The notes beneath the pieces are model-generated. The model was not told the DNA's origin and searched no databases. It was given only the letters and a program-made list of their open reading frames with translations. The translations under genes were made by a program, and so were the position numbers. Below are positions 29,971-59,004 of a stretch of 64,000 nucleotides of DNA, in pieces (positions within the stretch are counted from its first letter, which is position 1; every line of letters begins with the position of its first letter). Source of the DNA: Planctomycetaceae bacterium (GTDB lineage Bacteria > Planctomycetota > PLA2); the NCBI GenBank assembly GCA_011525755.1, contig WYBS01000033.1, positions 3,691 through 67,690 on the forward strand. Direction: 5' to 3'.

Positions 29971-30519
29971 TCACCGCGGGAGCCGCTTCGGATCGATCTC
30001 GCGCAGGCGCGGGGCCGCGGCGTCCTTCGGCGACAGCACCGGGTCGCGGACCGGCCAGTCGATCGCGAGATCCTCGTCGTCCCAGCGGACCGCCTGCTCG
30101 CTCGCCGGGTCGTAGGGTGCCGTACATTTGTACGCAAACAGCGCCCGGTCCGACAGCGCGAGGAAGCCGTGCGCGAAGCCCTCCGGGATCCAGAGCTGCG
30201 CGCGGTTCCCCGCGGAGAGCCGGTGGCCGTCCCACCGCCGGTACGTCGGCGAACCGGGCCGCACGTCCACCGCCACGTCGAACACCTCGCCCTGGAGCAC
30301 GTAGACGAGCTTCCCCTGCGCGCTCGGCCACTGGAAGTGGAGGCCGCGGAGCACGCCCCTCCGGCTCTCGCTCACGCTGTCCTGCGCGAAGCGCCCGGGG
30401 ATCCCGTGCTGCTCGTACCGCTCCGCGCGGAACGCCTCGAAGAAGCAGCCGCGCGCGTCCTCGAAGACGTCGGGCGTGATCTTCAGCACGCCCGGGAGCG
30501 CGGTCTCCTCGACCCTCAC
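29971..30519 (-). CDS. rmlC: dTDP-4-dehydrorhamnose 3,5-epimerase
   Basis: GTG at 30519 overlaps the rmlA TGA (GTGA). ARGCFFEAF...RGLHFQ motifs. Confidence 0.9.
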
Positions 30520-31403
30520 GGGCCCTCCCCCGGGCCCCCTCCCCTCGAGAGCCCGAGCAGGTACTCGCCGTACGCCGTGCCCTTGAGCTCCTCCGCGAGC
30601 CGCTTCAGCCGGACGCGGTCGATGAACCCGTTCTCGAAGGCGATCTCCTCCGGACACGCGATCTTCAGCCCCTGGCGCTCCTCGACCGCCTCGATGAAGT
30701 TCGTCGCCTGCCGGAGCGACTCCGGCGTGCCCATGTCGAGCCACGCCATCCCGCGGCCGAGCAGCTCCACGTGCAGCCGCCCGCGCTTCAGATATGCCTC
30801 GTTCACGTCCGTGATCTCGAGCTCGCCGCGCGCGCTCGGCCGGAGCGACTTCGCGATCCCGACCACGTCCCCGTCGTAGAAGTAGAGCCCCGTCACGGCA
30901 TTGCTCGACTTCGGCTCCCTCGGCTTCTCGACGATCGCGACCGGGCGGCCGCCCGCGTCCAGCTCGACCACGCCGTACCGCTGCGGGTTCCTCACGGGGT
31001 ACGCGAACACCGTCGCGCCCTCCTCCGGGATCCGCTGCAGGCGGTCGCGGAACCCGTGCCCGAAGAAGATGTTGTCGCCGAGGATCAGCGCGACCGGGTC
31101 GCCCTTCACGAACGACTCGCCCACGAGGAACGCCTGCGCGATGCCGCCCGGCTTCTCCTGGATCGCGTACGAGAGCCGGAGCCCCCACTGCGAGCCGTCC
31201 CCCAGGAGCTCCCGGAAGAGCGGCTGGTCGCGCGGCGTCGTGATCACGAGGATCTCGCGGATCCCCGCGAGCATCAGCACCGACAGCGGGTAGTACACCA
31301 TCGGCTTGTCGAAGACGGGGAGCAGCTGCTTGCTCACCGCCTTCGTGATCGGGTGGAGGCGGGTGCCGGAGCCGCCCGCGAGGACGATTCCCTTCCTGCT
31401 CAT
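30516..31403 (-). CDS. rmlA: Glucose-1-phosphate thymidylyltransferase
   Basis: [30 protein letters not shown]. Confidence 0.9.
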
Positions 31404-32428
31404 CGTGTGTGGGGGGGTGCGGGGGACCGGAGCCGGTCGCCGTAGTGGCGCTCGTAGTAGCCCATGTACTCGCCCGAGCGGACGCGGTCGAGCCACTCGC
31501 CGTTCTCGTCGTACCAGCGGATCGTCTCCGCCAGCGCCTGCTCGAACTTCGCGCGGGGCTTCCACTGCAGCTCGCGCGCCGCCTTCGCCGGGTCCGGGCC
31601 GTACCGCCGGTCGTGGCCGGGCCGGTCCTGCACGTGCCGGAGCAGGGACTCGGGCTTCCCGAGCGCCTTCAGGATGAACCGCGCGACGTCGAGGTTCTTC
31701 CGGTGGCACGAGCCCGCGAGGTTGTAGATCTCGCCCGGCCTGCCGCGCTCGAGGGCCGCGAGGATCCCCTCGCAGTGGTCGGTCACGTGGATCCAGTCGC
31801 GCTCGTAGAGGCCGTCGCCGTAGATCGGCAAGGGCTTCCCGTCCCGCGCGTTCGCGATGAGGAGCGGCACGAACTTCTCCGGGAACTGGTAGGGCCCGTA
31901 GTTGTTCGAGCCGCGCGTCACGATCACGGGGAGGCCGTGCGTGCGGTGCGCCGCCAGCGCGAGGTGGTCGCTCCCCGCCTTGCTCGCCGAGTAGGGGTTC
32001 GTCGGGCAGAGCCGCGCGTCCTCCGCGGCGAAGACGCCCGGCGCGAGCGGGCCGTAGACCTCGTCCGTCGAGACGTGGAGGAAGCGAAGGGCCCCGCGCT
32101 CGCGCGCGACGTCGAGGAGCACCTGCGTGCCGAGCACGTTCGTGCGGAGGAACGGGAACCCGTCCTCGATCGACCGGTCCACGTGGGTCTCCGCGGCGAA
32201 GTGCACGACGCTCACGGGCCCCTCCGCGGCGTCGAACGCGCGCCGGACGTCGCCCGGCTCGGCGATGTCGCCCTTCACGAAGACGTGGTCGGCCCCCGCG
32301 AGGTTCTCGAGGTTGCCGGCGTAGGTCAGCTTGTCGAGGACGACGACGCGGCGCTTCCCGGCGACGAGGCGCACGAAGTTCGAACCGATGAACCCGGCCC
32401 CGCCGGTGACGAGGAGCGTCTCTCCCAT
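31400..32428 (-). CDS. rmlB: dTDP-glucose 4,6-dehydratase
   Basis: [12 protein letters not shown] and YSASKA (YxxxK). Confidence 0.9.
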
Positions 32429-32435
32429 GGGAGCA

Positions 32436-33266
32436 TCATGCTACGAGAAACCGGCGGAGCGCGTCCCGCCAGTGGGGGAGGCGCTTGCCGCGGATCGCCG
32501 CGAGCTTCCCGCAGTCGAGCGCGCTCATCGCCGGCCGCTTCGCCGGCCGCGGGAACTCCGCCGTCGTGCACGGTACCACCTTCGGCCCCCCGGCCCCCCT
32601 CATTTCGAAGACCGCAAGCGCCATCTCGTGCCAGGTGCACGAGCCCTCGCAGGCGGCGTGGTAGACCCCCGGGACCCCCCGCAGCAGGAGCTCCCAGAGG
32701 ACCGGCGCGAGCTCGAGCGTGGACGTGGGGCAGCCGCGCTGGTCGTTCACGACCTTGATCTCCGGCCTCCCCGCCTGCTCGAGGATCGCGCCGACGAAGT
32801 GGCGGCCGCGGGGGCCGTAGAGCCAGGAGGAGCGGACGATGATCGCGTCCTTCGCCGCCTGCTCGGCCTCGAGCTTCGTCCGGCCGTAGATGTTCAGGGG
32901 GTGCGGGGGATCCTCCTCGCGGTAGGGGCGCTTCGAGGTCCCGTCGAACACGTAGTCCGTCGAGACGAGGAGCATCGGGATCCCGCGGCGGCGCGCGGCG
33001 GCGGCGACCGACCTCGTCGCCTCGACGTTGTCCGCGAACGCGGCCTCCTCCGCGACCTCCGCGCGGTCCACCTGCGTGAACCCGGCGCAGTGGAGCACGC
33101 CCGCGGGCTTCAGGCGCTCGAAGAGGAGCTCGACGTGCTCCGGCTCGGCGAGGTCGCAGTCGGCGCGGGTGACGGGGAGCGGACGGATGCCCTCGGGGGC
33201 GGCGCGCACGGCCTCGCTGCCGAGCATGCCCGCGGCCCCGGTTACGAGGATCTCTTTCGCCACCAC
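32436..33266 (-). CDS. rmlD: dTDP-4-dehydrorhamnose reductase
   Basis: GTG start (gtggtggcg) gives MVAKEILVTGAAGMLGS. Overlaps the 3' end of wecB by about 25 nt. Confidence 0.85.
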   Translation of the reverse strand: MVAKEILVTGAAGMLGSEAVRAAPEGIRPLPVTRADCDLAEPEHVELLFERLKPAGVLHCAGFTQVDRAEVAEEAAFADNVEATRSVAAAARRRGIPMLLVSTDYVFDGTSKRPYREEDPPHPLNIYGRTKLEAEQAAKDAIIVRSSWLYGPRGRHFVGAILEQAGRPEIKVVNDQRGCPTSTLELAPVLWELLLRGVPGVYHAACEGSCTWHEMALAVFEMRGAGGPKVVPCTTAEFPRPAKRPAMSALDCGKLAAIRGKRLPHWRDALRRFLVA

Positions 33267-34347: not shown

Positions 34348-34567
34348 CGAACCTCTTATCGGCCGGCCCGCCGCCGGCCCGCCATGGCGGGGCGCGCCGG
34401 ACGCCCCCCCCGCGGACGCCATGCGGGGCAAGGCCGGCGCGGGGCGCGTTCGCGGGCCGGGCCCGGGTTTGTCGACCGTTCTGGACGTCCGGCCGTTCCG
34501 ATCCGAAACAGGGGCGCTCTCCATGCGGTCCTTCCGTCTCATTGGGATACGCTCGCGCCCCATCGTC

Positions 34568-36325
34568 ATGGCCGGCCTCCTTGCGTTCGATCCCGTTCCC
34601 GGTTCCACCGCCTGCGGCCTCGCCGGCGCGAAGGCCTGGGTCGAGCGCGCGAAGGCGCTCGCCACGGAGTCGCCGGGGCCGCACGTCGTGAAGGTCTATC
34701 GCCGGAACGGCAGCGGGGCGCGGCCGGCCGTCGGGCCCCTCGGCTGGGTCGTGACGGCGGGGACGTGGCGCCACCCGGCCGCGGGCCGCGACGACAACGA
34801 GGCGCTCCTCGCGCGGCTCGGGGAGCGCGGCCCCGGGGTCCTCGACGAGCTCGACGGCTGCTACGCCGTCGCGTGGTGGGACCGCGCGTCGGGCACGCTC
34901 ACGGTGGCTCCCGACCACTTCGGCCGGCTCCACGTCTACGGGGCGGAGGCGCCCGAGGGGACCTACATCGGCACCTCGCCGGTCGCCGTCGCGCGCGCCG
35001 CGCGGTCGGTCGATCCCGACCCGGTCGCAACGTGGGAGATGCTCGCGACCGGCGTCATCTACGAGGACCGCTCGCCGTTCGCGGGCGTGAAGCGCCTCCT
35101 CGGGACGCATCGCTACCGCTTCCGGGACGGACGATCCGCCGGGGCCGACGACGCCCCGCTCCTCCCCCCGCGCGAGCCCGGCCCGAGCGCATCGGTCGCG
35201 GACCTCGCCGACGCCTGCCGCGAGGCCGTCTTCGAGTGGTTCGACCGCGGCACCAGGTTCCTGCCGGACCTCACCGGCGGCATGGACTCGCGCCTCGTCG
35301 CGGGCTTCCAGCTCGGGGCAGGGCTCGCGTTCGACGTGACCGTGACCGGCGATCCCGAGGAGCCGGACGCGCGCGTCGCGGGCGACCTCGCGCGTCGCCT
35401 CGGCCTCAACCTGCGGCGCGTGCCGCGCGCGCAGGGCGCCCACGCGCAGCGCTCGTGGGACGCGGTCCTCCGCGCGGCGTCGCGCGTCGAGGGGACCTAC
35501 GACGCCGCCGAGTACGCCGCGATCGCCGCCGTGCACGAGCCGAACTCCGCGATCGGCGAGTTCAGCGTGAACGGCTCGGGCGGCGAGGTGTACCGGAACT
35601 ACTGGTGGGACGAGCGCCACGTCGGCCGGACGGACGGGGACGCCGTCGGCGAGCTCGTGCGCCGCTTCGCGGCGGCGGCGATCGCCCCGCGGTTCGCGGA
35701 GCCGCGCGACGCGGGACGGCACTTCCGCGACGTGCTCGCCCGGACGCTCGAGGCGCGCGCGGGCGACCCCATGCCCGCGCTCTTCGACCACGCCTACCTC
35801 CACCTTCGGATGCAGTGCTGGCAGGGCGCGATCGCGAGCGCCACGAACCAGATCTGGCCGACGATCTCCCCGCTCCTGCTCGCGCGTCCCCTCTCGGTCC
35901 TCTACCGCGTGCCCGACCGGGAGCGGCTCCATGGCCGCCTCTTCCGTTCCCTCATGCGCTCCTTCCCGGGGCCCTTCCGCACCACGCCGCTCGTGACGGG
36001 GTTCCCCCCGATGGAGCCCGCGCTCACGAACTTCTGGCGCTTCGTGCCCGGGCTCTTCGGCCTGCCGGCGCAGTACTGGGGCCGCGCGCGCGAGCGGTTC
36101 CTGCGCGGCCGTCCGCGCCCCGACGACGGCGAGGCGGTGCGCGCGCTGATGGCGGCAGGTGCGGCCGACTTCCTGCGGCCGCGCGACCTCGTCCTGCGGC
36201 CGCTCCTCGATGCGAGGCGGCTCGACGAGTTCCTCGCGGTCGCGATCCGGGAAGGGACGGTGCCGCTCCGGTTCGTCGGCCGGCTCGTCGCGCTCGAGTG
36301 GGCGCTGCGCGAGGCGTCGGCGTAG
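34568..36325 (+). CDS. Asparagine-synthetase (AsnB) family protein with degenerate N-terminal glutaminase nucleophile (MAG instead of MCG)
   Basis: Intact PP-loop DLTGGMDSRLVAG. The N-terminal IVMAGLLAFDP places Ala where the class-II GATase Cys2 normally sits. An alternative ATG exists at 34523. Divergent from wecB. Confidence 0.65.
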   Translation: MAGLLAFDPVPGSTACGLAGAKAWVERAKALATESPGPHVVKVYRRNGSGARPAVGPLGWVVTAGTWRHPAAGRDDNEALLARLGERGPGVLDELDGCYAVAWWDRASGTLTVAPDHFGRLHVYGAEAPEGTYIGTSPVAVARAARSVDPDPVATWEMLATGVIYEDRSPFAGVKRLLGTHRYRFRDGRSAGADDAPLLPPREPGPSASVADLADACREAVFEWFDRGTRFLPDLTGGMDSRLVAGFQLGAGLAFDVTVTGDPEEPDARVAGDLARRLGLNLRRVPRAQGAHAQRSWDAVLRAASRVEGTYDAAEYAAIAAVHEPNSAIGEFSVNGSGGEVYRNYWWDERHVGRTDGDAVGELVRRFAAAAIAPRFAEPRDAGRHFRDVLARTLEARAGDPMPALFDHAYLHLRMQCWQGAIASATNQIWPTISPLLLARPLSVLYRVPDRERLHGRLFRSLMRSFPGPFRTTPLVTGFPPMEPALTNFWRFVPGLFGLPAQYWGRARERFLRGRPRPDDGEAVRALMAAGAADFLRPRDLVLRPLLDARRLDEFLAVAIREGTVPLRFVGRLVALEWALREASA

Positions 36326-36346
36326 CGGCCGCCCCCCGACCCCCTG

Positions 36347-37987: not shown

Positions 37988-38239
37988 AGGGCCTCCGTGG
38001 CAGGCGGAGCCCGCGGCGCCGCGCGCGGCGGGGCTCCTGCCGTCCCGGATCGAGACACCCTATTCGCATGCCGGATACGCCGGCACCGCGCTACCTTAGC
38101 ACGACCCCGGCGAGCCGACGCCGCGGCGCGGAGGACGGCGTCTCATGACGAGGCGATCGCGCCGCCGAAGCGCCTTCCATCGGGACTTCTAAAGGTCCTC
38201 GACGCGAAAAGACGAAACGCAAGGGGAACCATGAGCGGC

Positions 38240-40087: not shown

Positions 40088-40103
40088 GGGGGCTCCGGGG
40101 GCC

Positions 40104-44039: not shown

Positions 44040-44049
44040 GGGGAGGCGG

Positions 44050-50179: not shown

Positions 50180-51406
50180 TCACGAGGCGCGACGCTCCGT
50201 GTGCGCGCGGCGCACCAGCCGCTCGTAGACGGGAAGGTAGCGCGAGACGCTCCTCCTCCAGTTCCGCTCCTCCTCGACGTAGCGGCGCGCCGACTCCCGC
50301 AGCGCGGGCCAGCGCGCGGGGGAGGCGAGGAGCGCCCCCACGGCGTGCGCGAGCGACTTCGGGTCGTTCGCGCGGAAGAGGATGCCGGTCCCGTCGTCCC
50401 GGATCATCTCGCGGTGGCCGCCGATGTCGCTCGCCGCGACGACGCATCCCTGCGCCATCGCCTCGAGCGGCTTCAGGGGCGTCACGATGCGGGTCAGGCG
50501 CAGGTCGAGGCGCGGGTAGACCATCACGTCGCAGACGGAGTAGTAGTCCGCGACGCGCTCGTGCGGGACCCGGCCGACGAAGCGGACCGACTCGCCGAGC
50601 CCGAGCCGCTCCGCCTGCTCGCGGAGCCGCTTCTCCTCGTAGCCTCCCCCGACGAGGAGCAGGCGCACGTCGGGGTTCGTCGCCGTGATGCGCGTCATGG
50701 CGTCGAGCAGGACATGCAGCCCCTCGTAGGCGTAGAACGAGCCGATGAAGCCGAGGACCCGCTTGCCCCGGAGCCCGAGGCCGTCGACGAGCGCCGGATC
50801 CGCGGCGCGGCCGTAGGCGAACGCCTCGGGATCGACCGCGTTCGGGATGACCGTGATGCGCTCCGGGGGGATGCCGCGGGCCTCGATCTCCTCGCGGAGG
50901 CCCTCGCAGATGGTCATGATCGCGTCCGCCTGGCGCAGGATGCGCGTCTCGAGCAGCCGCGTCACGCGGTAGCGCAGGTCGCCCTCGCGGCAGGTGCCGT
51001 GATCGACCGCGGCATCCTCCCAGGAGGCGCGCATCTCGTAGACGAACGGGATGCCGAGGCTCCGCGCGACGGGCAGCGCGGCGATCGCGGTGAGGCACGG
51101 CGAGTGGGCGTGGATGATGTCCGGCTTCGTCACGCGGGCGACCTCGGCCGTGCGGCGTCGCAGGTCGCGTACGATCGCCAGGTTGCGCAGCACGGCGGGG
51201 CGCGAGAGGAACCTGCGCGGCGGCGCGGTCCGGTGGAAGCGGAATCCGTCGACTTCCTGATCGACGGCGTTCCCCTGCTTCCCGCTCGTGAGCTGGTCCG
51301 TCTCGATGCCCATCGCGCGCTGCTGGCGGAGGATCGACCGCGTGCGGAAGCTGTAGCCGCTGTGCAGCGGGATCGAATGGTCGAGGATGTGGAGGACCCG
51401 GGTCAC
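50180..51406 (-). CDS. Glycosyltransferase family 4 (PEP-CTERM/EpsH1-associated sugar-transferase-like)
   Basis: MTRVLHILDHSIPLHSGYSFRTRSIL N-terminus, typical of the exosortase-system GT4 subfamily. Confidence 0.8.
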   Translation of the reverse strand: MTRVLHILDHSIPLHSGYSFRTRSILRQQRAMGIETDQLTSGKQGNAVDQEVDGFRFHRTAPPRRFLSRPAVLRNLAIVRDLRRRTAEVARVTKPDIIHAHSPCLTAIAALPVARSLGIPFVYEMRASWEDAAVDHGTCREGDLRYRVTRLLETRILRQADAIMTICEGLREEIEARGIPPERITVIPNAVDPEAFAYGRAADPALVDGLGLRGKRVLGFIGSFYAYEGLHVLLDAMTRITATNPDVRLLLVGGGYEEKRLREQAERLGLGESVRFVGRVPHERVADYYSVCDVMVYPRLDLRLTRIVTPLKPLEAMAQGCVVAASDIGGHREMIRDDGTGILFRANDPKSLAHAVGALLASPARWPALRESARRYVEEERNWRRSVSRYLPVYERLVRRAHTERRAS

Positions 51407-51651: not shown

Positions 51652-52917
51652 TTGAATCTCGCATCCGTCGACAGGGAGGGCTCGCGCGCCGTCCCCGCCG
51701 CCCCGCCTCCGGCCAGGAGCGCCGCCGCGCGCCTCCTCGGGATCCTCGCGCGCCGCAACCGCGCGTTCCGCCGGCTCGTCGTCGCGGACCAGATCCGCTT
51801 CATGACCGGCATGATCCGCCCGGTCGAGGGCGAGATCCGCGAGCGCGCCGACGCCGCGATCGCGTGGCTCCTCCGCGCGCAGGACGGGAGCGAGGACCGC
51901 GGCGTGTCGATGGGCTACTACCCGCTCGACCCCGAGGCGGCCGCGCGCGGCGGCTGGATGCCCTCGTACCCCGAGACCACGGGGTACATCATGCAGACGC
52001 TCCTCGCGTACGCCGAGCGGCACGGCCGCGGCGATCTCGTGGAGCGCGCGATGGAGATGGCGCGCTGGGAGATCGGGATCCAGATGTCCGACGGCGCCGT
52101 GATGGGCGGGCATCTCCGCCCGCCGGAGCAGCGGAGGGCCGCCGCGTTCAACACCGGCATGGTCCTCCAGGGCTGGACCGCCGCGTACCGGGCGACCGGG
52201 GATGCGGCCGTCCTCGGCGCCGCCCGGCGCGCCGCCGACTGGCTCGTCGCCGACCAGGGCGAGGACGGGCACTACCGCACCCACGGCACGCTCGTCCCGG
52301 ACGCGCGGGTCAAGACCTACAACAGCCTCTGCTCGTGGGCGCTCTACCGCTTCGGCGAGGACACCGGCGAGCAGCGCTACAAGGACGCGGCCGTCCGGAA
52401 CATCACGGCGACGGTCGGCGAGCAGCGGCCGAGCGGCTGGTTCGCGAACAACTGCCTCACGCACCCCGCGACGCCGCTCCTCCACACGATCGGCTACACG
52501 CTGCAGGGCGTGCTCGAAGTGGGGATCCTCTCGGGCGAGAAGCGGTTCGTCGAGGCGGCGCGCCGCGGCACGCTGCCGCTGCTCCCGCTCATCTCGCGGA
52601 AGGGTTTCATCCGCGGCCGCTTCCGCGAGGACTGGACGGCCGCCGCGCGCTGGTCCTGCCTCACGGGCAACGCGCAGCTCGCGGTCGTCTGCTTCCGGCT
52701 CCACGAGGTGACGGGCGAGAAGGCCTTCCTCGACGCCGCGAACCGGCTCACGAACCTCCTGAAGGCGCTCCAGAGCCTCCGCACCGGCGACCCGGGGATC
52801 GACGGCGCGATCCCGGGCTCGTTCCCGATCTTCGGCGGCTACATGACCGCGGGTTTCCCGAACTGGGCGACGAAGTACTACCTCGACGCCCTGCTCGCGC
52901 AGGAGCGTGCGGGTTGA
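51652..52917 (+). CDS. Hypothetical Trp-rich alpha-helical protein (possible alpha/alpha-toroid fold)
   Basis: TTG at 51652 with GAGGGA 7 nt upstream. No confident family. The start is uncertain, and the track opens this frame at 51523. Confidence 0.45.
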   Translation: MNLASVDREGSRAVPAAPPPARSAAARLLGILARRNRAFRRLVVADQIRFMTGMIRPVEGEIRERADAAIAWLLRAQDGSEDRGVSMGYYPLDPEAAARGGWMPSYPETTGYIMQTLLAYAERHGRGDLVERAMEMARWEIGIQMSDGAVMGGHLRPPEQRRAAAFNTGMVLQGWTAAYRATGDAAVLGAARRAADWLVADQGEDGHYRTHGTLVPDARVKTYNSLCSWALYRFGEDTGEQRYKDAAVRNITATVGEQRPSGWFANNCLTHPATPLLHTIGYTLQGVLEVGILSGEKRFVEAARRGTLPLLPLISRKGFIRGRFREDWTAAARWSCLTGNAQLAVVCFRLHEVTGEKAFLDAANRLTNLLKALQSLRTGDPGIDGAIPGSFPIFGGYMTAGFPNWATKYYLDALLAQERAG

Positions 52918-53963: not shown

Positions 53964-54015
53964 GAGCGAGGGTGGAGCGGGGCCGTGTCCGGCGCGGTTG
54001 AGCCGTAGCCGGCCG

Positions 54016-54259
54016 GTGTGCGAACATCCGGCGGTCGCCGTCCCTCGCGGATCGGCCGCAGGAGCGCCGCAGCCGACCGTGTGCGAACGTCTGGCGCCGG
54101 CTTGCCGAGGGTATTGCCGCCCGCCGTTCCGGGGCGAACCGCGAACACCTGCCGCCTCTCTCCCGGATGCGCGGGGCCGTTCTCCTCGCGAGCGGCCGAC
54201 GGGCAAGCACCGGAAGCTGCGGACTTCGCCTGCCGGGAAGGCGAACATCCGGCGCCCGG
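54016..54259 (+). promoter_or_regulatory. Four direct repeats of about 17 bp (GYGCGAACRTCYGGCGSC) in the 640-bp leader upstream of the ACP operon
   Basis: Copies at about 54016-54034, 54078-54097, 54131-54155 (degenerate) and 54235-54259. Spacing is about 62, 62 and 100 bp. Confidence 0.55.
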
Positions 54260-54603
54260 CCGAGTGGCCGGGTCGATGTCACGCGGGCGCCGGCACGGGC
54301 GGGCCCCGGGGCCAGCGCAGGACGTGGATCCTGTGCATTCCGTACATCCATACTGAACAGGGGGGACAGGATCCAGGGTCGTCCGGTCGCCGGTCCGCCG
54401 GAGCCCCTCGCCGCGTCGTCCGCGAGCCGTCCCGCGCCCTCGAACCCGCCCCTGGAAGCGCCGCACAACCGCGGGGCGCCCCGCCCCCCGGGTGTCGCGC
54501 GCATCCGACGCCCCGGCCCCCGCGCGTCGCGCCGGATCGACGCGATCCGCCCCCCGGGCCCCCCTTCTTCCGTGGTCCGTGATTTGCCGGTAGGCTTCCC
54601 CTG

Positions 54604-54873
54604 ATGCCCGAATCGCGAGCCCATGCCACGCCCGGAACGACGGACGAGATCCGGGCCTTCATCCGCCGCCGGTTCCCCCTTGCGGTCACGGCGGCCGTGA
54701 CGGATGAGGACTCGCTCCTCGACTCCGGCATCATCGACTCGCTCGGGATCCTCGATCTCGTCGCGTTCCTCGAGAAGACCTACGCCATCCGGGTCGGCGA
54801 CGAGGAGCTGAACCCCGGGAACTTCGACAGCATCGCGAGCGTGGCCCGCTTCGTCGCGACGAAGAAGGCCTAG
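54604..54873 (+). CDS. Acyl carrier protein
   Basis: 89 aa with the phosphopantetheine-attachment motif GIIDSLGILDL. Confidence 0.85.
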   Translation: MPESRAHATPGTTDEIRAFIRRRFPLAVTAAVTDEDSLLDSGIIDSLGILDLVAFLEKTYAIRVGDEELNPGNFDSIASVARFVATKKA

Positions 54874-54881
54874 GAGGGGGC

Positions 54882-56453
54882 GTGGCCTACCTTCTCCATC
54901 ACCTCCTCGAGGCGACGGCGGAGCGCCTCCCGCGCAAGGAGGCGGTCGTCGACAAGGAGCGGCGCTTCGACTACGGCGAGCTGCTCGCGGCCGCCTCGAC
55001 CTGCGCCGGGATGCTCAAGGACCTGTCCCTCGCGCGCCGCGACCGCGTCGCGATCTTTCTCGACAAGTCCTTCGAGGAGGCTGCGTCGATCTTCGGGATC
55101 AGCCGCGCGGGCGGCGTCTTCGTCCCCATCAACGCGCTCCTGAAGCCGCCGCAGGTCGCGCACATCGTGAACGACTGCGGCGTCCGTGTCCTCATCACGA
55201 GCGGGCTCCGGTGGAAGATGCTCGAGGAGGCCTTGAAGGACGCACCGTCGCTCGAGCGCGTGCTCCTCGTGGACGACCCGCGCGGCGCGGCCGACCCGCG
55301 CGTGGTCGCGCGCCTCTTCGACGAGCCGCGCGCCCCGGGCGCCCCGAGCCCCTGCATCGGCGAGGATCTCGCCGCGATCCTCTACACCTCGGGCTCCACC
55401 GGGCGCCCGAAGGGCGTGATGCTCTCGCACAGGAACCTCCTCGCGGGCTCGCGGATCGTCCGCACGTATCTCGGGATCCGGGAGGAGGAGCGGATCCTCT
55501 CCGTGCTCCCGTTCAGCTTCGACTACGGGCTCAACCAGCTCGTCACGGCGGTCGAGAAGGGCGCGACCACGGTGCTCCTGTCCTTCCGCTTCGGCGACGA
55601 GATCGTCCGCGCGTGCGCGAACGAGCGGATCACGGGCCTCGCCGGCGTGCCGACCGTGTGGGCGCTGCTCGCGGGCGCCGCGCCCTCGCTGCCGAAGACG
55701 CAGCTCCCGCACCTCCGCTACCTGACGAACAGCGGCGGCGCGGTGCCGACGGAGACCGTGAGGAAGATCCGCACGCTGCTCCCTGGCACGGACTTCGTCC
55801 TCATGTACGGGCTCACGGAGGCGTTCCGCTCGACCTACCTGCCGCCGTCGGAGATCGACAGGCGCCCGGGCTCGATGGGGAAGGCGATCCCCGAGACGGA
55901 GATCATGGTCGTGAACGAGAAGGGCGAGCGCTGCCGGCCGGGCGAGGTGGGCATCCTCGTCCACCGCGGCCCGACCGTCTCGCTCGGCTACTGGAACCGG
56001 CCGGAGGACACGGCGCGCGTGCTGCGTCCGAACCCGCTCGTGGCGCCGAACGAGGGGGCCGACGTCGTCTGCTACTCCGGCGACCTCGTGCGGATGGACG
56101 AGGAGGGGTACCTCTACTTCCTCGGCCGCGGCGACGCGATGATCAAGTCGAGCGGCTACCGCATCAGCCCCTCCGAGGTCGAGGAGGTGCTGATGGCGAC
56201 GGGGCTCCTCGCGCAGGTCGCGGTGATCGGCGTGCCCGACCCCGCGGTGGGCGAGCGCGTGCACGCGGTCGCGGTCGCGGCCGAGGGCAAGGCGAAGGAC
56301 ACCGAGTCGATCCTCGCGCGCTGCGCGAAAGACCTCCCGGCGCACATGGTGCCGCGCGAGATCGAGTACGTGGACGAGCTTCCGCGCTCCCCGAACGGCA
56401 AGGTGGACTACAAGCTCCTGAAGGCGCAGCGCGCCGCGGGGCAAGTGGCATAG
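54882..56453 (+). CDS. AMP-forming acyl-CoA/ACP ligase (exosortase-A-system-associated type)
   Basis: GTG at 54882 with GGAGG 6 nt upstream. AMP-binding motif YTSGSTGRPKGV. 523 aa. Confidence 0.9.
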   Translation: MAYLLHHLLEATAERLPRKEAVVDKERRFDYGELLAAASTCAGMLKDLSLARRDRVAIFLDKSFEEAASIFGISRAGGVFVPINALLKPPQVAHIVNDCGVRVLITSGLRWKMLEEALKDAPSLERVLLVDDPRGAADPRVVARLFDEPRAPGAPSPCIGEDLAAILYTSGSTGRPKGVMLSHRNLLAGSRIVRTYLGIREEERILSVLPFSFDYGLNQLVTAVEKGATTVLLSFRFGDEIVRACANERITGLAGVPTVWALLAGAAPSLPKTQLPHLRYLTNSGGAVPTETVRKIRTLLPGTDFVLMYGLTEAFRSTYLPPSEIDRRPGSMGKAIPETEIMVVNEKGERCRPGEVGILVHRGPTVSLGYWNRPEDTARVLRPNPLVAPNEGADVVCYSGDLVRMDEEGYLYFLGRGDAMIKSSGYRISPSEVEEVLMATGLLAQVAVIGVPDPAVGERVHAVAVAAEGKAKDTESILARCAKDLPAHMVPREIEYVDELPRSPNGKVDYKLLKAQRAAGQVA

Positions 56454-56455
56454 GG

Positions 56456-57742
56456 ATGCACCCGCACCCCCTCCTGCCCTCGCTGCTCCCTCACTTCCCC
56501 CCGGAGCGCGGCGAGATGACGGTGGGGGGGATCCCCGTCTCCGACCTCGCCCGCGAGTTCGGCACGCCGCTCTACGTCTACGACGCGGCGATCCTCCGGG
56601 CGCGGCTCGATCTCCTGCGCGCGGCGGTGCCGAAGGCGGATGTCTACTACTCGGTCAAGGCGAACCCGAACCCCGCGGTCGTCTCCGTCTTCGCGAAGGC
56701 GGGCGCGGGGCTCGAGGTGGCGTCGGCGGCCGAGTACCTGCGCGCGCGCGCGGGCGGCGGGAAGCCGGAGCGGATCCTCTTCGCCGGTCCCGGCAAGGGC
56801 GAGGAGGAGCTGCGGCTCGTGGTCGAGCGGGGGATCGGCGAGATCCACGTCGAGTCCCGCGAGGAGATCTCCTTCCTCTCGAAGCTGGGGGGCTCCGGGG
56901 GCAGGCCGGTGCCCGTGTCCCTTCGCGTGAACCCGAAGGCGGACGTCTCCGGCGGCGCGATGCGGATGGGCGGGCAGCCCGCCGCGTTCGGTTTCGACGA
57001 GGAGATCCTCGACGATGTCGTTCGCGATATCTGCGCGCGGCCGGGGCTCGCGTTCCAGGGGATCCACATCTTCGCGGGGACGCAGATCCTCGACGCGAAG
57101 GTGCTGCTCGCGCAGTGGGGGCGCGCTCTGGACGTCGCGCGCCGCGCCGGCGCGGTCGCCGGGAGGCCCGTGAGGACGATCGACCTCGGCGGCGGCCTCG
57201 GCGTGCCGTACTTCGGGAACGAGACGGAGCTCGACCTCGCCGCGGTGAAGGCGGGCGCGGCGGAGCTCTTCCGGGGCGTCGACGCGCGCGTGATCCTCGA
57301 GCCCGGGCGCTTCCTCGCGGGGCCCGCGGGGGTCTACCTCGCGCGCACGCGGACCGTGAAGGAGTCGCGCGGGAAGACGTTCGTCGTCCTCGACGGCGGG
57401 ATGAACCATCATCTCGCGGCGTCGGGCAACCTCGGCCAGGTGATCAAGCGCGACTACCCGGTCGTGAACGCGTCTCGCGTGGGGGAAGCTGCCTCGCAGG
57501 CCGCCGCGGTGGTCGGTCCCCTCTGCACCCCCCTGGATACTCTCGCGAGGGACGCCTCGCTCGCGCCCGTGCGCGCGGGCGACCTGCTCGCCGTGCTGCA
57601 GTCGGGCGCCTACGGCCTCTCCGCGAGCCCGGTCGGGTTCCTGTCGCACCCGATGCCCGCGGAGGTGCTCGTGGACGGCGGGAACGCGACGCTGATCCGG
57701 CCGCGCGGGACGTTCGAGAAGCCGATCACGGAGCTGCCGTGA
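56456..57742 (+). CDS. PLP-dependent decarboxylase, fold III (DapDC/ODC-like), exosortase-A-system-associated type
   Basis: YYSVKANPN carries the PLP Lys. GTPLYVYD. An alternative start exists at the MTVGG Met (about 56516). Confidence 0.85.
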   Translation: MHPHPLLPSLLPHFPPERGEMTVGGIPVSDLAREFGTPLYVYDAAILRARLDLLRAAVPKADVYYSVKANPNPAVVSVFAKAGAGLEVASAAEYLRARAGGGKPERILFAGPGKGEEELRLVVERGIGEIHVESREEISFLSKLGGSGGRPVPVSLRVNPKADVSGGAMRMGGQPAAFGFDEEILDDVVRDICARPGLAFQGIHIFAGTQILDAKVLLAQWGRALDVARRAGAVAGRPVRTIDLGGGLGVPYFGNETELDLAAVKAGAAELFRGVDARVILEPGRFLAGPAGVYLARTRTVKESRGKTFVVLDGGMNHHLAASGNLGQVIKRDYPVVNASRVGEAASQAAAVVGPLCTPLDTLARDASLAPVRAGDLLAVLQSGAYGLSASPVGFLSHPMPAEVLVDGGNATLIRPRGTFEKPITELP

Positions 57743-59004
57743 GCCCGCGCGTCCTGATGGTCGCGTACCACTATCCGCCGTGCACGGGGAGCAGCGGGAT
57801 CCAGCGCGCGCTCACGTTCTCGCGCTATCTGCCGGAGCGCGGGTGGGACCCGGTCGTGCTGTCCGCGCACCCGCGCGCGTACGAGGCGAGGTCGGACGAC
57901 CAGCTGAAGGACATCCCCCTTGGCGTGCCGGTGCACCGCGCGTTCGCGCTCGACGCGAAGCGGCACCTGTCGATCGGCGGGCGCTACCCGGGGTTCCTCG
58001 CGCGGCCCGACCGGTGGGCGACTTGGGCGCTCGGCGCGGTCCCGCTCGGGATGAAGCTCGTGCGGCGGTACCGCCCCGCGGCGATCTGGACCACGTACCC
58101 GATCGCGACGGCGCACCTGATCGGGCACCGGCTCCAGCGGAGGACCGGCCTCCCGTGGATCGCGGACTTCCGCGACTCGATGACGGAGGAGGGGTATCCC
58201 TCGGACCCGCGGCAGTTCCGGGCGTTCCGGGAGATCGAGCGGCGCGCGATGGAGCACGCGGCGCGGGTCGTCTTCACGACGCCCGGCGCCGTGCGCATGT
58301 ACCGCGAGCGGTACCCGTCGGCGCCCGCGGAGAAGTTCGTGGTGCTGCCGAACGGGTACGACGAGGCCCCGTTCGCGGAGGCCGAGCGCGGATTGGAAGT
58401 GGGGGGGCGCGGGGGGCCGGTGACGCTCGTGCACAGCGGGATCCTCTACCCGTCGGAGCGGGACCCGCGGCCGTTCTTCGACGCGCTTGCGGAGCTGAAG
58501 CGCTCGGGCGCGGTGGACGCGGCGCGGCTGCGGATCGTGCTCCGCGCGACGGGCCACGACGCGACCCACGGCGCGGAGATCGAGAAGCGCGGGATCGGCG
58601 ACATCGTGAAGCTCGAGCCGCAGGTGCCGTACCGCGATGCGCTGAAGGAGATGCTCCGCGCGGACGGGCTCCTGCTCTTCCAGGCGAGCAACTGCAACCA
58701 CCAGGTGCCGGCGAAGGTATACGAGTACTTCCGCGCGCGGCGTCCGATCCTCGCGCTGACGGACGCAAGCGGCGACACGGCGGCGGTGCTGCGGGACGCA
58801 GGCGTCGGCACGATCGTGCCCTTGGACGACGCGGCGGCGATCGCGAGGGGCCTCGTGGAGTTCCTCGCGCGGGTGCGCGCGGGCGAGGCGCCGGTCGCGA
58901 GCGACGTGGAGCGCCACTCCCGCCGCGGCCGCACCGAGGAGCTCGCGGATGTGCTCGCCGCCGCGTCGCGCGCCGCGCAGCCGAAGGCGGTCGCGGCGCT
59001 CTAG
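57739..59004 (+). CDS. Glycosyltransferase (exosortase-A-associated HYPP-motif family)
   Basis: GTG overlaps the upstream TGA (GTGA). VLMVAYHYPPCTGSSGIQR. Confidence 0.8.
   Translation: MSPRVLMVAYHYPPCTGSSGIQRALTFSRYLPERGWDPVVLSAHPRAYEARSDDQLKDIPLGVPVHRAFALDAKRHLSIGGRYPGFLARPDRWATWALGAVPLGMKLVRRYRPAAIWTTYPIATAHLIGHRLQRRTGLPWIADFRDSMTEEGYPSDPRQFRAFREIERRAMEHAARVVFTTPGAVRMYRERYPSAPAEKFVVLPNGYDEAPFAEAERGLEVGGRGGPVTLVHSGILYPSERDPRPFFDALAELKRSGAVDAARLRIVLRATGHDATHGAEIEKRGIGDIVKLEPQVPYRDALKEMLRADGLLLFQASNCNHQVPAKVYEYFRARRPILALTDASGDTAAVLRDAGVGTIVPLDDAAAIARGLVEFLARVRAGEAPVASDVERHSRRGRTEELADVLAAASRAAQPKAVAAL

What the first reader, a model, noticed from the sequence alone, without database searches (positions are those of the whole stretch)
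29971..59004. Exosortase-A/PEP-CTERM-type polysaccharide locus with the unexplained ACP / AMP-ligase / PLP-decarboxylase triad, but no exosortase in the window
The locus combines rmlDBAC, wecB, ugd, four GT4 genes (two with the characteristic HILDHS and HYPP N-termini), a Wzy/O-antigen-ligase-like gene, FemAB-like, NodB deacetylase, GNAT, three AsnB paralogues and the ACP (DSL) / AMP-ligase (YTSGSTGRPKGV) / fold-III PLP decarboxylase (YYSVKAN) operon. That triad is a signature of exosortase-A EPS loci, and its biochemical product is still unknown. With FemAB-like and GNAT genes present, it plausibly installs an amino-acid- or acyl-derived decoration on the polymer. Neither xrtA/epsH nor the export genes (wza/wzc/wzx) are inside 29.9-59.0 kb. 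The right end abuts an IS and toxin-antitoxin island.
Basis: partly seen in the sequence, partly recalled or inferred. Interest (0 to 1): 0.7.

Follow-up and report, generated by a model that had tools for sequence, protein, structure and literature searches.

The report
Polysaccharide locus with amino-acyl decoration module
This 29-kb gene cluster builds and decorates a surface polysaccharide, and its three long-unexplained genes (carrier protein, ligase, decarboxylase) most likely make a carrier-bound beta-alanine or GABA unit that puts a free amino group on the sugar chain.

Summary
Five proteins pass the curated cutoffs of exosortase-A-associated models (TIGR03098, 03019, 03006, 03087, 04063). 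Three fall below them (TIGR03099, 03097, 03108). The 64-kb window has no exosortase, PEP-CTERM protein, PrsK/R regulator, priming transferase, flippase or exporter.

That absence is normal. In 80 related genome loci the ligase-decarboxylase pair always sits among glycan genes, and I found no exosortase within 10 kb of it.

The triad can be explained. The decarboxylase groups with BtrK, which decarboxylates glutamate tethered to a carrier protein, and it has lost the diaminopimelate-binding motifs. The ligase's best single-domain structural relative is VinN. It keeps VinN's Asp, Ser/Thr and Arg determinants in 73 of 73 relatives. The predicted product is beta-alanyl- or gamma-aminobutyryl-S-carrier protein. 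A conserved upstream tandem GNAT probably transfers it to the glycan.

The deacetylase, FemAB (VimA-like) and AsnB genes parallel the T9SS linking-sugar pathway. An amine handle for protein attachment is therefore a plausible but unproven purpose. The toxin-antitoxin claim is not confirmed.

The parts
29971..33266 (-). rmlC (29971-30519), rmlA (30516-31403), rmlB (31400-32428) and rmlD (32436-33266): dTDP-L-rhamnose synthesis
   Evidence: TIGR01221 234 vs 156, TIGR01207 462 vs 361, TIGR01181 405 vs 365, TIGR01214 280 vs 224 bits
33242..34348 (-). wecB, non-hydrolysing UDP-GlcNAc 2-epimerase (makes UDP-ManNAc)
   Evidence: TIGR00236 323 vs 210. The start at GTG 34348 has an AAGAGG Shine-Dalgarno
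34421..36325 (+). Degenerate AsnB-like protein, with only a weak glutamine-amidotransferase domain
   Evidence: Pfam GATase_7 30.6 bits; TIGR01536 35 vs 267
36347..37987 (-). Secreted right-handed beta-helix protein, probably a glycan lyase, hydrolase or epimerase
   Evidence: Pfam Beta_helix and NosD. The N-terminus looks like a signal peptide. A similar gene lies in the Noviherbaspirillum PEP-CTERM locus
38240..40087 (+). AsnB paralogue 2, a divergent amidotransferase. The likely start at TTG 38240 gives MCGWAG
   Evidence: TIGR03108 262 vs 817; TIGR01536 224 vs 267. Start codon and Shine-Dalgarno spacing
40104..42080 (+). AsnB paralogue 3, a glutamine-hydrolysing amidotransferase (begins MCGIAG). 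WbpS-like, a candidate for converting a uronic acid to a uronamide
   Evidence: TIGR01536 523 vs 267; TIGR03108 790 vs 817. N-terminus. WbpS precedent in PMC7468200
42194..42718 (-). RDD-family small membrane protein
   Evidence: Pfam RDD 50 vs 24; two TM-like segments
42864..44078 (-). GT4 glycosyltransferase (TuaC-like)
   Evidence: Best NCBIfam hit NF047684 141 bits, below its cutoff. Conserved next to Wzy_C in L006, L007 and L089
44050..45351 (-). Wzy_C / O-antigen-ligase-like polytopic membrane protein
   Evidence: Pfam Wzy_C 69 vs 31.7; TIGR03097 98 vs 188, fails; 7 TM-like segments
45374..46441 (-). FemAB-family XrtA-associated protein, the same family as T9SS VimA, which transfers an amino acid onto a sugar
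   Evidence: TIGR03019 266.3 vs 260.35; Pfam Acetyltransf_6 and FemAB. VimA matches TIGR03019 according to PMC7468200
46533..47405 (-). XrtA-system polysaccharide deacetylase (CE4, analogous to VimE)
   Evidence: TIGR03006 319 vs 276
47402..48718 (-). Nucleotide-sugar 6-dehydrogenase (ugd-like)
   Evidence: TIGR03026 380 vs 190
48721..49974 (-). GT4 'stp1' XrtA-system glycosyltransferase
   Evidence: TIGR03087 436 vs 317
50180..51406 (-). GT4 'stp3' XrtA-system glycosyltransferase (HILDHS N-terminus)
   Evidence: TIGR04063 586 vs 442; motif verified
51652..52917 (+). GH127-like (alpha/alpha)6 protein of unknown role. Its stop overlaps the GNAT start
   Evidence: Pfam Beta-AFase-like_GH127_cat 43 vs 25. 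Also present in close relatives L001, L002 and L089
52914..53963 (+). Tandem-GNAT N-acyltransferase, the proposed off-loading enzyme for the carrier protein
   Evidence: Pfam Acetyltransf_1, _7 and _9. AF2 pLDDT 93.6. Foldseek top hits are Eis-type acetyltransferases and N-myristoyltransferases. It lies directly upstream of the carrier gene, with overlapping stop and start, in L006 and L007. It is present in 13 of 80 surveyed loci
53964..54603 (.). 640-nt non-coding gap upstream of the carrier-protein operon. It contains four same-strand copies of GCGAAC(A/G)(T/C)C(C/T)G(G/C)CG at 54020-54254, possibly regulator binding sites
   Evidence: No coding signal in the frame plot. Repeats. All four window matches lie here. 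No Rfam hit
54604..54873 (+). Stand-alone carrier protein (aminoacyl/peptidyl-carrier type), with Ser46 in IIDSLG
   Evidence: Pfam PP-binding. Best PDB matches are peptidyl carrier proteins, PigG and HitD
54882..56453 (+). Adenylating ligase (ANL/A-domain type) that loads the carrier protein. The predicted substrate is L-Asp or L-Glu, attached through its side-chain carboxyl
   Evidence: TIGR03098 642 vs 592. Best single-domain PDB match is VinN at 203 bits. D214, S/T284, R316 and K507 are invariant in 73 of 73 relatives
56456..57742 (+). Fold-III PLP decarboxylase of the BtrK type, predicted to act on the carrier-tethered amino acid
   Evidence: BtrK 270 bits against the best DAP decarboxylase at 224 bits. 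Shared derived motifs. Tree and motif table. TIGR03099 409 vs 478. PLP Lys68, the GGGLG loop, EPGR and Cys357 are invariant
57739..59004 (+). GT4d, a highly conserved GT-B glycosyltransferase translationally coupled to the decarboxylase (4-nt overlap, HYPP N-terminus)
   Evidence: Pfam Glyco_trans_4_4. No NCBIfam model and no PDB sequence hit. AF2 pLDDT 85.6; top Foldseek hits are MshA, GlgM, BshA and PimA. Next to the pair in 22 of 80 surveyed loci in both tiers. 58-63% identical across phyla
59232..60377 (-). DDE (rve) transposase marking the right boundary of the locus
   Evidence: Pfam rve 54 vs 33. IS3 141 vs 160 and IS481 127 vs 224, both below cutoff. No clear terminal inverted repeats

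Best explanation
The region 29971-59004 is the sugar-synthesis and decoration part of a surface polysaccharide pathway of the kind first catalogued around exosortase A. It comes from a roughly 71%-GC genome whose closest relatives are MAGs labelled Planctomycetota.

Shown by family membership:
- rmlABCD, wecB and ugd supply dTDP-rhamnose, UDP-ManNAc and a UDP-uronic acid.
- Four GT4 enzymes and a Wzy_C protein assemble the repeat.
- A CE4 deacetylase, a FemAB/VimA-family transferase and AsnB amidotransferases modify it.

Inferred from homology, conserved determinants and operon structure:
1. The ligase adenylates an acidic amino acid at its side-chain carboxyl and thioesters it to the 89-aa carrier protein. 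L-Asp is most likely, and L-Glu is the alternative.
2. The BtrK-type PLP decarboxylase removes the free alpha-carboxyl while the substrate stays on the carrier. This gives beta-alanyl-S-carrier or gamma-aminobutyryl-S-carrier.
3. The tandem GNAT encoded just upstream transfers this omega-aminoacyl group to a nucleophile on the glycan or its lipid- or nucleotide-linked precursor. A sugar amine exposed by the deacetylase is the most plausible acceptor.
4. The translationally coupled GT4d handles the sugar involved.

The net result would be a polysaccharide carrying a flexible primary-amine side group.

Priming, flipping, export and any exosortase must be encoded elsewhere in the genome.
For: Gene content and curated-cutoff passes.

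Decarboxylase:
- The top PDB hit is BtrK, the L-glutamyl-[BtrI ACP] decarboxylase, at 270 bits. The best DAP decarboxylase scores 224 bits.
- With BtrK it shares DGGM(N/H)HH-AAS in place of the DAP-decarboxylase MNDLIRPxLY, and GAYGLSxSPxxFLxHP in place of GAYGxxMSS-YNxRP.
- A neighbour-joining tree puts BtrK with the whole polysaccharide-linked family, with three DAP decarboxylases outside. The motifs hold in 29 of 29 family members.

Ligase:
- It resembles amino-acid adenylation domains. The best single-domain PDB match is VinN, which loads 3-methyl-Asp or Asp through the beta-carboxyl.
- VinN's determinants are Asp230 for the alpha-amino group and Ser299/Arg331 for the alpha-carboxyl group (PMC7756342; PMC11253843).
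- These correspond to D214, S/T284 and a loop Arg, R316. All are invariant in 73 of 73 relatives.

Carrier protein: the best matches are aminoacyl/peptidyl carrier proteins.

The same three-enzyme logic is biochemically established in the butirosin, fluvirucin, closthioamide, vicenistatin and bolagladin pathways (PMC11350588; PMC11284099; PMC7756342).

Context:
- Ligase and decarboxylase are adjacent in 73 of 80 surveyed genome loci, always among glycan genes.
- The order GNAT-carrier-ligase-decarboxylase-GT4d recurs in Planctomycetota, Acidobacteriota, Nitrospirota, Binatia and delta-proteobacterial genomes.
- The GNAT model is a tandem-GNAT amine N-acyltransferase fold.
Against: - No biochemistry exists for any member of this family. 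Everything about substrate and product is inference.
- The decarboxylase scores below the TIGR03099 cutoff (409 vs 478) and nominally above the LysA cutoff (299.5 vs 297.9).
- The register of R316 relative to VinN K330/R331 rests on sequence alignment through LgrA and GrsA numbering, not on a structure.
- Asp and Glu cannot be told apart. No sequences of VinO, FlvO, CtaF or BolN were available for comparison.
- The GNAT is absent from most classical-tier loci, which carry alpha/beta hydrolases instead. In the window it is separated from the carrier gene by 640 nt.
- The acceptor is unknown.
- I found no report of a beta-alanyl- or GABA-substituted polysaccharide from any organism carrying these genes.
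- The Foldseek matches of the GNAT and of GT4d are generic for their folds.
Confidence: 0.62

Rival explanations
1. Dlt-like aminoacylation. The ligase activates the alpha-carboxyl of an ordinary amino acid and loads it on the carrier protein for ester or amide decoration of the polymer, as DltA and DltC do for D-alanine. The decarboxylase is a separate LysA-type enzyme that supplies the free amino acid, for example lysine from diaminopimelate.
For: The ligase has A-domain motifs and the amino-binding Asp. D-alanyl carrier proteins appear among the weaker matches of the carrier protein. The decarboxylase nominally passes the LysA model, 299.5 vs 297.9, and public sources name it diaminopimelate decarboxylase.
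Against: The DAP-decarboxylase motifs MNDLIRPxLY and MSS-YNxRP are replaced by the BtrK-type motifs in all family members. I recall from the literature, without checking here, that these motifs bind the distal carboxylate of the substrate. BtrK outscores every DAP decarboxylase. The invariant Ser/Thr284 and Arg316 match VinN's recognition of a free alpha-carboxyl, which is not expected if the alpha-carboxyl is the group being activated. Strict ligase-decarboxylase adjacency in 73 of 80 loci suggests consecutive steps on one intermediate.
Confidence: 0.12
2. Lipid or acyl route. The ligase is a fatty-acyl or other acyl-AMP ligase, as its 'acyl-CoA ligase' name suggests. The module would then make an acyl-carrier intermediate for an N-acyl amino acid, a lipid anchor or an O-acyl decoration, in line with the reported link between N-acyl amino acid synthases and PEP-CTERM systems.
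For: The TIGR03098 model is named an acyl-CoA ligase, and long-chain and malonyl-CoA ligases score 190-350 bits. A FeeM-type N-acyl amino acid synthase lies in the Noviherbaspirillum PEP-CTERM locus near a GT4d homologue. The GNAT model also resembles N-myristoyltransferases. Craig et al. 2011 was seen cited, but the paper itself could not be read.
Against: The invariant FD motif (Asp235 equivalent) is characteristic of amino-acid-activating enzymes. An obligatorily adjacent BtrK-type amino-acid decarboxylase has no role on a fatty acyl chain. The carrier protein resembles aminoacyl/peptidyl carriers more than fatty-acid ACPs.
Confidence: 0.1
3. Decayed or orphan fragment. The locus is an incomplete remnant, cut off from its exosortase and export genes by the IS and island at its right end, and no longer makes a polymer.
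For: A transposase lies 228 nt after GT4d, followed by a lower-GC island. There is no priming transferase, flippase or exporter in 64 kb. One AsnB paralogue is degenerate. In the 86%-identical relative, more sugar-modification genes follow GT4d where the window has the IS.
Against: All 23 ORFs are intact, with strong coding GC3 of 0.90-0.99, and key catalytic residues are conserved. Identical operon copies occur in three independent sequencing runs. Relatives without the IS also lack an exosortase or exporter across about 41 kb, so the split layout is ancestral to this lineage and was not caused by the IS.
Confidence: 0.08

Closest known systems
VinN-VinL-VinO (vicenistatin), with FlvN/L/O (fluvirucin), CtaD/E/F (closthioamide) and BolO/C/N (bolagladin)
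   Same: A stand-alone ANL/A-domain ligase, a stand-alone carrier protein and a fold-III PLP decarboxylase. Asp or 3-methyl-Asp is loaded through the side-chain carboxyl and then decarboxylated on the carrier to a beta-alanyl-type thioester. The window ligase keeps VinN's Asp, Ser and Arg determinants, and VinN is its best single-domain PDB match.
   Different: Those modules feed polyketide or non-ribosomal assembly lines in secondary metabolism. Here there is no PKS, NRPS, VinM-type protecting ligase or VinK-type acyltransferase. The neighbours are glycosyltransferases, a deacetylase and a tandem GNAT. No sequences of VinO, FlvO, CtaF or BolN were available for direct comparison.
BtrI-BtrJ-BtrK of butirosin biosynthesis
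   Same: The decarboxylase is closest to BtrK among all solved structures and shares its derived active-site motifs. In that pathway too, the product ends up as an N-acyl group on an amino sugar.
   Different: BtrJ is an ATP-grasp ligase, not an ANL enzyme. The substrate there is Glu, giving GABA that is then hydroxylated. Transfer uses BtrH, with BtrG for deprotection, and neither has a counterpart here.
Exosortase A (XrtA) / PEP-CTERM polysaccharide systems (NCBIfam TIGR03098, 03099, 03019, 03006, 03087, 04063, 03108, 03097, 03100)
   Same: Five proteins pass these curated models. The ligase-decarboxylase pair and GT4d have orthologues in Zoogloea, Thauera, Accumulibacter and other floc formers, next to hydrolase 1 (TIGR03100) or the priming transferase TIGR03013.
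   Different: The window has no XrtA, EpsI, PEP-CTERM substrate, PrsK/R/T or export genes. The decarboxylase, the Wzy-like protein and AsnB fall below their cutoffs. A tandem GNAT takes the place of the hydrolase pair. The lineage is probably Planctomycetota, not Proteobacteria.
Wbp/Vim 'linking sugar' pathway of type IX secretion (Porphyromonas, Tannerella)
   Same: A CE4 deacetylase (VimE), a TIGR03019-family amino-acid transferase (VimA) and an AsnB-like amidotransferase (WbpS) make a 2-N-aminoacyl uronamide sugar. Its free amine receives a protein C-terminus. The window has the matching trio plus ugd and wecB.
   Different: There are no WbpA/B/E/D 2,3-diamino-sugar genes and no aminotransferase in the window, and no T9SS. 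The amino acid there is Ser or Gly, presumably not carrier-protein-borne. Here a dedicated carrier-protein route would supply an omega-amino acid.
Mycothiol and bacillithiol pathways (MshA/BshA GT4, MshB/BshB deacetylase, MshC ligase, MshD tandem GNAT). This comparison rests on my own knowledge of those pathways
   Same: The chemical logic is the same: a GT4 installs GlcNAc, a deacetylase frees the amine, an ATP-dependent ligase brings an amino acid, and a tandem GNAT acylates. MshA is the top Foldseek hit of GT4d.
   Different: This is an analogy only. The deacetylase and ligase belong to different families, no carrier protein or decarboxylase is involved there, and the products are small thiols, not polymers.

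Membership tests
Exosortase A (XrtA)/PEP-CTERM system | An exosortase XrtA/EpsH gene | tested here: not met
   No called gene in the 64-kb window matches any exosortase model at E<=1e-5. None was found within 10 kb of the triad in relatives. The rest of the source genome could not be examined.
Exosortase A (XrtA)/PEP-CTERM system | PEP-CTERM-tagged substrate proteins | tested here: not met
   A heuristic scan of all ORF C-termini in the window found none. No TIGR02595 hit was seen, though my E-value filter was strict for such a short domain.
Exosortase A (XrtA)/PEP-CTERM system | PrsK/PrsR two-component regulators and the PrsT TPR lipoprotein | tested here: not met
   The only hits are generic TPR similarity to PrsT, 45 and 33 bits against a cutoff of 312.
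Exosortase A (XrtA)/PEP-CTERM system | XrtA-associated glycan enzymes scoring above their curated cutoffs | tested here: met
   Pass: TIGR03098 642 vs 592, TIGR03019 266.3 vs 260.35, TIGR03006 319 vs 276, TIGR03087 436 vs 317, TIGR04063 586 vs 442. Fail: TIGR03099 409 vs 478, TIGR03097 98 vs 188, TIGR03108 790 vs 817.
Exosortase A (XrtA)/PEP-CTERM system | Priming transferase (TIGR03013) and export/chain-length machinery | tested here: not met
   Absent from the window. TIGR03013 is present next to the pair in Rhodocyclaceae loci, 518 vs 393.
Carrier-tethered amino-acid decarboxylation module (Btr/Vin/Flv/Cta/Bol type) | A stand-alone carrier protein with a phosphopantetheine-attachment serine, encoded next to the ligase | tested here: met
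   89-aa PP-binding protein with IIDSLG. Found directly upstream of the ligase in 29 of 35 window-type loci.
Carrier-tethered amino-acid decarboxylation module (Btr/Vin/Flv/Cta/Bol type) | An adenylating enzyme with determinants for a free alpha-amino and alpha-carboxyl group (VinN D230, S299, R331) | tested here: inconclusive
   D214, S/T284 and R316 are invariant in 73 of 73 relatives. However, the Arg register was set by sequence alignment only, and no direct VinN alignment could be obtained.
Carrier-tethered amino-acid decarboxylation module (Btr/Vin/Flv/Cta/Bol type) | A fold-III PLP decarboxylase of the BtrK lineage, not a diaminopimelate decarboxylase | tested here: met
   BtrK is the top PDB hit. 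Derived motifs are shared. BtrK groups with the family, and DAP decarboxylases fall outside.
Carrier-tethered amino-acid decarboxylation module (Btr/Vin/Flv/Cta/Bol type) | Demonstrated loading through the side-chain carboxyl and decarboxylation on the carrier | not testable with these tools
   This needs enzyme assays and intact-protein mass spectrometry.
Diaminopimelate decarboxylase LysA (TIGR01048) | The motifs MNDLIRPxLY and MSS-YNxRP conserved in the three solved DAP decarboxylases compared. Their role in binding the distal carboxylate is my recollection from the literature and was not checked here | tested here: not met
   The model score is nominally above cutoff, 299.5 vs 297.9, but both motifs are replaced in the window enzyme and in all 29 family members examined.
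Wbp/Vim linking-sugar pathway | A CE4 deacetylase, a TIGR03019-family amino-acid transferase and an AsnB-type amidotransferase | tested here: met
   TIGR03006 and TIGR03019 pass. AsnB3 scores TIGR03108 790 vs 817 and TIGR01536 523 vs 267. The pathway definition comes from PMC7468200.
Wbp/Vim linking-sugar pathway | WbpA/B/E/D enzymes that make a 2,3-diamino uronic acid | tested here: not met
   There is no aminotransferase, WbpB-type oxidase or WbpD acetyltransferase in the window. A DegT aminotransferase does occur in relative L004.
Wzx/Wzy-dependent polysaccharide assembly | Wzy polymerase, Wzx flippase and a polyprenyl-phosphate priming transferase | tested here: inconclusive
   A Wzy_C protein is present. 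Wzx and a priming transferase are absent from the window, though they occur near the pair in some relatives.

The most novel reading that the evidence does not exclude
The carrier-ligase-decarboxylase module, working with the GNAT, GT4d, deacetylase, FemAB/VimA and AsnB genes, builds a 'linking sugar' that ends in a flexible beta-alanyl or GABA primary amine. That amine would be the long-sought acceptor nucleophile onto which exosortase-type enzymes transfer the C-terminus of sorted proteins. This would parallel the pentaglycine bridge used by sortase A and the seryl/glycyl linking sugar used in type IX secretion. In this lineage the cassette would serve the same purpose with an exosortase encoded elsewhere or with a different transpeptidase.
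Probability: 0.2. Interest if true: 0.85.

Novelty: new variant of a known kind. Interest (0 to 1): 0.58.

Why it matters
To my knowledge, the exosortase-A-associated ligase, decarboxylase and carrier protein have been catalogued for years without a proposed reaction, and public sources label the decarboxylase as LysA. Matching all three parts to the Btr/Vin-type 'load by the side chain, decarboxylate on the carrier' module gives a specific product that can be tested by mass spectrometry. It would also extend a secondary-metabolite trick to polysaccharide decoration, which I found nowhere in the searchable literature.

These span wastewater floc formers, soil Acidobacteriota, Nitrospira and Planctomycetota, so the prediction bears on biofilm and floc matrix chemistry.

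If the installed amine proves to be the attachment point for sorted proteins, it would answer what exosortases attach their substrates to.

On the other hand, this particular window is an ordinary member of a widespread cassette, and the missing exosortase is not an anomaly.

Tried and rejected
- Source genome and flanks. The exact ligase is found only on Logan contigs of 9 kb or less. The best genome contigs match is 62% identical. An exact 49-mer from the right end has no match in metagenome contigs. So I could not test whether the source genome has XrtA.
- Direct alignment to VinN. This was not obtainable because five two-domain LgrA entries fill the top alignment slots. My first reading of LgrA as the best hit was wrong: its 281 bits is the sum of two domains.
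- My first hand-numbering of ligase positions 278, 299 and 301 was off by ten residues. I corrected it.
- Sequence searches of the GNAT, GT4d and FemAB-like proteins against the PDB gave nothing significant.
- Foldseek on the GNAT and GT4d models gave only fold-level answers.
- Rfam on 29-64 kb gave no hits, so there is no riboswitch in the 640-nt gap.
- The promoter and terminator scan was uninformative.
- The IS has no clear terminal inverted repeats in this GC-rich DNA.
- Toxin-antitoxin genes were not confirmed by Pfam.
- The exosortase seed search among membrane proteins of the 80 loci found none in ten cluster representatives. Singletons were not all checked and gene calling is rough below 60% GC, so this negative result is incomplete.
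- Literature. TIGR03098 and TIGR03099 are not mentioned in any held paper. Haft 2006 does not mention the triad. Craig 2011 and Miyanaga 2014 are not held.
- The idea that the E1/E2-like genes seen in Zoogloea are a general part of the module was rejected. They occur in only 1-2 loci.

Full report
**1. What is there**

The window is about 71% GC, so raw ORF lists are dominated by spurious frames. I called genes from frame-specific GC3 and scanned every called gene with NCBIfam and Pfam.

- Precursor genes: rmlC, rmlA, rmlB, rmlD and wecB are all above their curated cutoffs.
- Sugar dehydrogenase: ugd.
- Four GT4 genes. Two pass the XrtA-system models TIGR03087 (436 vs 317) and TIGR04063 (586 vs 442).
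- A Wzy_C protein.
- A FemAB-family protein (TIGR03019, 266.3 vs 260.35).
- A CE4 deacetylase (TIGR03006, 319 vs 276).
- A tandem GNAT.
- Three AsnB-like genes.
- The carrier protein, ligase and decarboxylase.

All quoted motifs are present.

Corrections and additions:
- TIGR03099 (409 vs 478), TIGR03097 (98 vs 188) and TIGR03108 (790 vs 817) are below cutoff.
- One AsnB paralogue is degenerate.
- Another AsnB paralogue probably starts at TTG 38240, which restores the catalytic MCG.
- The locus also holds a secreted beta-helix protein, an RDD protein, a GH127-like protein and a 640-nt non-coding gap.

The right end abuts an rve transposase. The toxin-antitoxin reading is not supported by Pfam.

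**2. The missing exosortase**

None of the 52 called genes in the window matches an exosortase, PrsK/R, priming transferase, flippase or exporter. No ORF ends in a PEP-CTERM-like tail. The left flank is housekeeping and motility genes.

The source genome could not be recovered. By the names that public sources give the closest homologues (85-94% identity), it is a Planctomycetota-type MAG lineage.

Relatives show that this layout is normal.
- In an 86%-identical relative, about 41 kb around the operon has the same gene set and no exosortase.
- Two more distant contexts (60-67% identity) have GT4, Wzy_C, FemAB-like, deacetylase and GT4 on one strand, and GNAT, carrier, ligase, decarboxylase and GT4 on the other.
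- A Geminicoccales genome has the pair among a priming transferase, deacetylases, GTs, AsnB and an ABC exporter.

A scan of the species-representative genome collection with family-specific peptides returned at least 595 confirmed stretches, of which 80 loci were kept.
- The ligase and decarboxylase are adjacent in 73 of the 80. Four of the seven exceptions are contig ends.
- Even in Zoogloea the pair lies in a satellite operon next to nuo genes.
- Ten representative membrane-protein clusters from these loci include a MOP flippase and the XrtA-system priming transferase TIGR03013, but no exosortase. This negative result is incomplete.

So the 'exosortase A' in the model names reflects genome-level co-occurrence, not adjacency.

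**3. The triad**

*Decarboxylase.*
- Its best solved relative is BtrK, the L-glutamyl-[BtrI carrier protein] decarboxylase, at 270 bits. The best diaminopimelate decarboxylase scores 224 bits.
- Residue by residue, the window enzyme and BtrK share DGGM(N/H)HH-AAS where DAP decarboxylases have MNDLIRPxLY.
- They also share GAYGLSxSPxxFLxHP where DAP decarboxylases have GAYGxxMSS-YNxRP.
- In a tree of 29 family members from both identity tiers, BtrK joins the family and three DAP decarboxylases stay outside. The motifs hold in every member.
- The PLP lysine and other catalytic residues are invariant.

*Ligase.*
- It has NRPS-type core motifs.
- LgrA's 281 bits is the sum of two domains. The best single-domain PDB match is therefore VinN at 203 bits.
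- The 3WV4/3WV5/3WVN entries are VinN, identified from PMC11253843. VinN adenylates the beta-carboxyl of 3-methyl-Asp or Asp and loads the carrier protein VinL.
- VinN's determinants are D230 for the alpha-amino group and S299/R331 for the alpha-carboxyl group (PMC7756342).
- The corresponding window residues are D214, S284 and a specificity-loop Arg, R316. Across 73 relatives these are invariant as Asp, Ser/Thr and Arg.

*Carrier protein.* It resembles aminoacyl/peptidyl carriers.

*Precedent.* The same three-step logic is established for the butirosin, fluvirucin, closthioamide, vicenistatin and bolagladin pathways. The acidic amino acid is loaded through its side chain and its alpha-carboxyl is removed on the carrier, which gives a beta-alanyl or GABA thioester.

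I therefore predict beta-alanyl-S-carrier from Asp, favoured by the VinN-like ligase. The alternative is gamma-aminobutyryl-S-carrier from Glu, as with BtrK.

**4. Where the product goes**

Two genes travel with the pair.
- A roughly 350-aa tandem GNAT directly precedes the carrier gene in many window-type loci, with overlapping stop and start in two of them.
- Its confident model (pLDDT 93.6) is closest to Eis-type acetyltransferases, which N-acylate aminoglycoside amines, and to N-myristoyltransferases. Both take an acyl group from a pantetheine thioester and put it on an amine.
- The GT4 after the decarboxylase (GT4d) overlaps it by 4 nt. It recurs next to the pair in 22 of 80 loci in both tiers.
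- GT4d is 58-63% identical across phyla, has no NCBIfam model and folds as a standard GT-B enzyme nearest MshA.
- Classical proteobacterial loci carry alpha/beta hydrolases (TIGR03100) where the window type has the GNAT. This looks like replacement of the off-loading enzyme by a non-homologous one.

That the GNAT transfers the omega-aminoacyl group to a sugar amine freed by the deacetylase is an inference, not a demonstrated step.

**5. Link to known protein-to-glycan attachment**

Veith et al. 2020 (PMC7468200) worked out how the type IX secretion 'linking sugar' is made.
- The enzymes are a CE4 deacetylase (VimE), VimA and an AsnB-like amidotransferase (WbpS).
- VimA matches TIGR03019, the same family as the window's FemAB-like protein.
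- The cargo C-terminus is amide-bonded to the amine of the installed amino acid.
- The authors speculated that XrtA systems make an analogous compound.

The window has the matching trio plus ugd and wecB. In addition it has a dedicated route to an omega-amino acid donor. The most novel reading my evidence does not exclude is that the cassette makes an amine-terminated linking sugar for exosortase-type transpeptidation. I put this at about 0.2, because no exosortase or PEP-CTERM protein is in evidence for this lineage.

**6. Novelty and verdict**

I found no paper connecting the exosortase-associated triad to the Btr/Vin logic, and Haft 2006 does not mention it. The library is incomplete, so this is absence of evidence only.

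The locus itself is an ordinary member of a widespread cassette. The mechanistic assignment is new and testable: a known secondary-metabolite module deployed for polysaccharide decoration. I classify it as a new variant of a known kind, with interest 0.58.

Noticed in passing
window 53964-54603 (motif copies at 54020, 54083, 54141, 54241): A 640-nt non-coding gap upstream of the carrier-protein operon holds four same-strand copies of GCGAAC(A/G)(T/C)C(C/T)G(G/C)CG within 235 nt. These are the only matches in the 64-kb window, although the window-wide count is not above chance. They may be regulator binding sites. Gene callers on Logan contigs placed a 224-aa ORF here that has no coding GC3 signal.
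   Followed up: partly
window 56456-57742: The decarboxylase nominally passes the LysA equivalog model (299.5 vs 297.9 bits), and JGI labels it and its relatives 'diaminopimelate decarboxylase'. It lacks the DAP-decarboxylase motifs, so this looks like a systematic misannotation across the family.
   Followed up: yes
window 57739-59004; L090 10001-11296: GT4d is more conserved across phyla (58-63% identity) than the ligase or decarboxylase, yet it has no NCBIfam model and no PDB sequence match. In Noviherbaspirillum denitrificans it occurs without the triad, next to ugd, a beta-helix protein, a PEP-CTERM-domain protein and a FeeM-type N-acyl amino acid synthase.
   Followed up: partly
window 38231-38242: AsnB paralogue 2 is usually called from ATG 38231 (MSGLCG...). 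TTG 38240 lies about 11 nt after an AAGGGG Shine-Dalgarno and would give MCGWAG, restoring the catalytic N-terminal cysteine.
   Followed up: partly
L004 13840-20056: In the 86%-identical relative, the genes after GT4d are a FemAB-like protein, a DegT aminotransferase, a formyltransferase, a luciferase-like monooxygenase, and a second AMP-ligase with a second carrier protein. This is a second acyl-decoration module that the window lacks; the window has an IS at that point.
   Followed up: no
L066 938-4354: In Zoogloea sp. LCSB751, a fused E1 alpha/beta-like protein and an E2-like (lipoyl/acyltransferase) protein of the 2-oxoacid dehydrogenase type, plus an 89-aa ORF, precede hydrolase 1, GT4d, the ligase and the decarboxylase. 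This arrangement is rare among the 80 loci.
   Followed up: partly
window 4422-6519 and 15106-17623: The left flank has two tandem PilT/PilU ATPase paralogues and two tandem FHA-domain Ser/Thr kinases. It also has a 1279-aa TPR protein (18839-22678) and a REP-associated tyrosine-transposase-like gene (3278-4354).
   Followed up: no
window 7923-13551: The Opp/Nik-type ABC transporter components are unusually long: permeases of 483 and 592 aa and a binding protein of 801 aa. The family match covers only the C-terminal part of each.
   Followed up: no
window 60400-64000: This is a lower-GC island (0.66 against 0.71-0.75). It holds small minus-strand ORFs with only sub-threshold hints (UPF0150/HicB-like, HTH_17), a truncated WD40-repeat protein (61496-62260) and a 465-aa ORF with no family match that ends near the window end (stop at 63984).
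   Followed up: partly
window 51652-52917: A GH127-like (alpha/alpha)6 protein with a weak C5-epimerase-like hit overlaps the GNAT start by 4 nt. It is conserved only in the closest relatives, and its role in the pathway is unknown.
   Followed up: no
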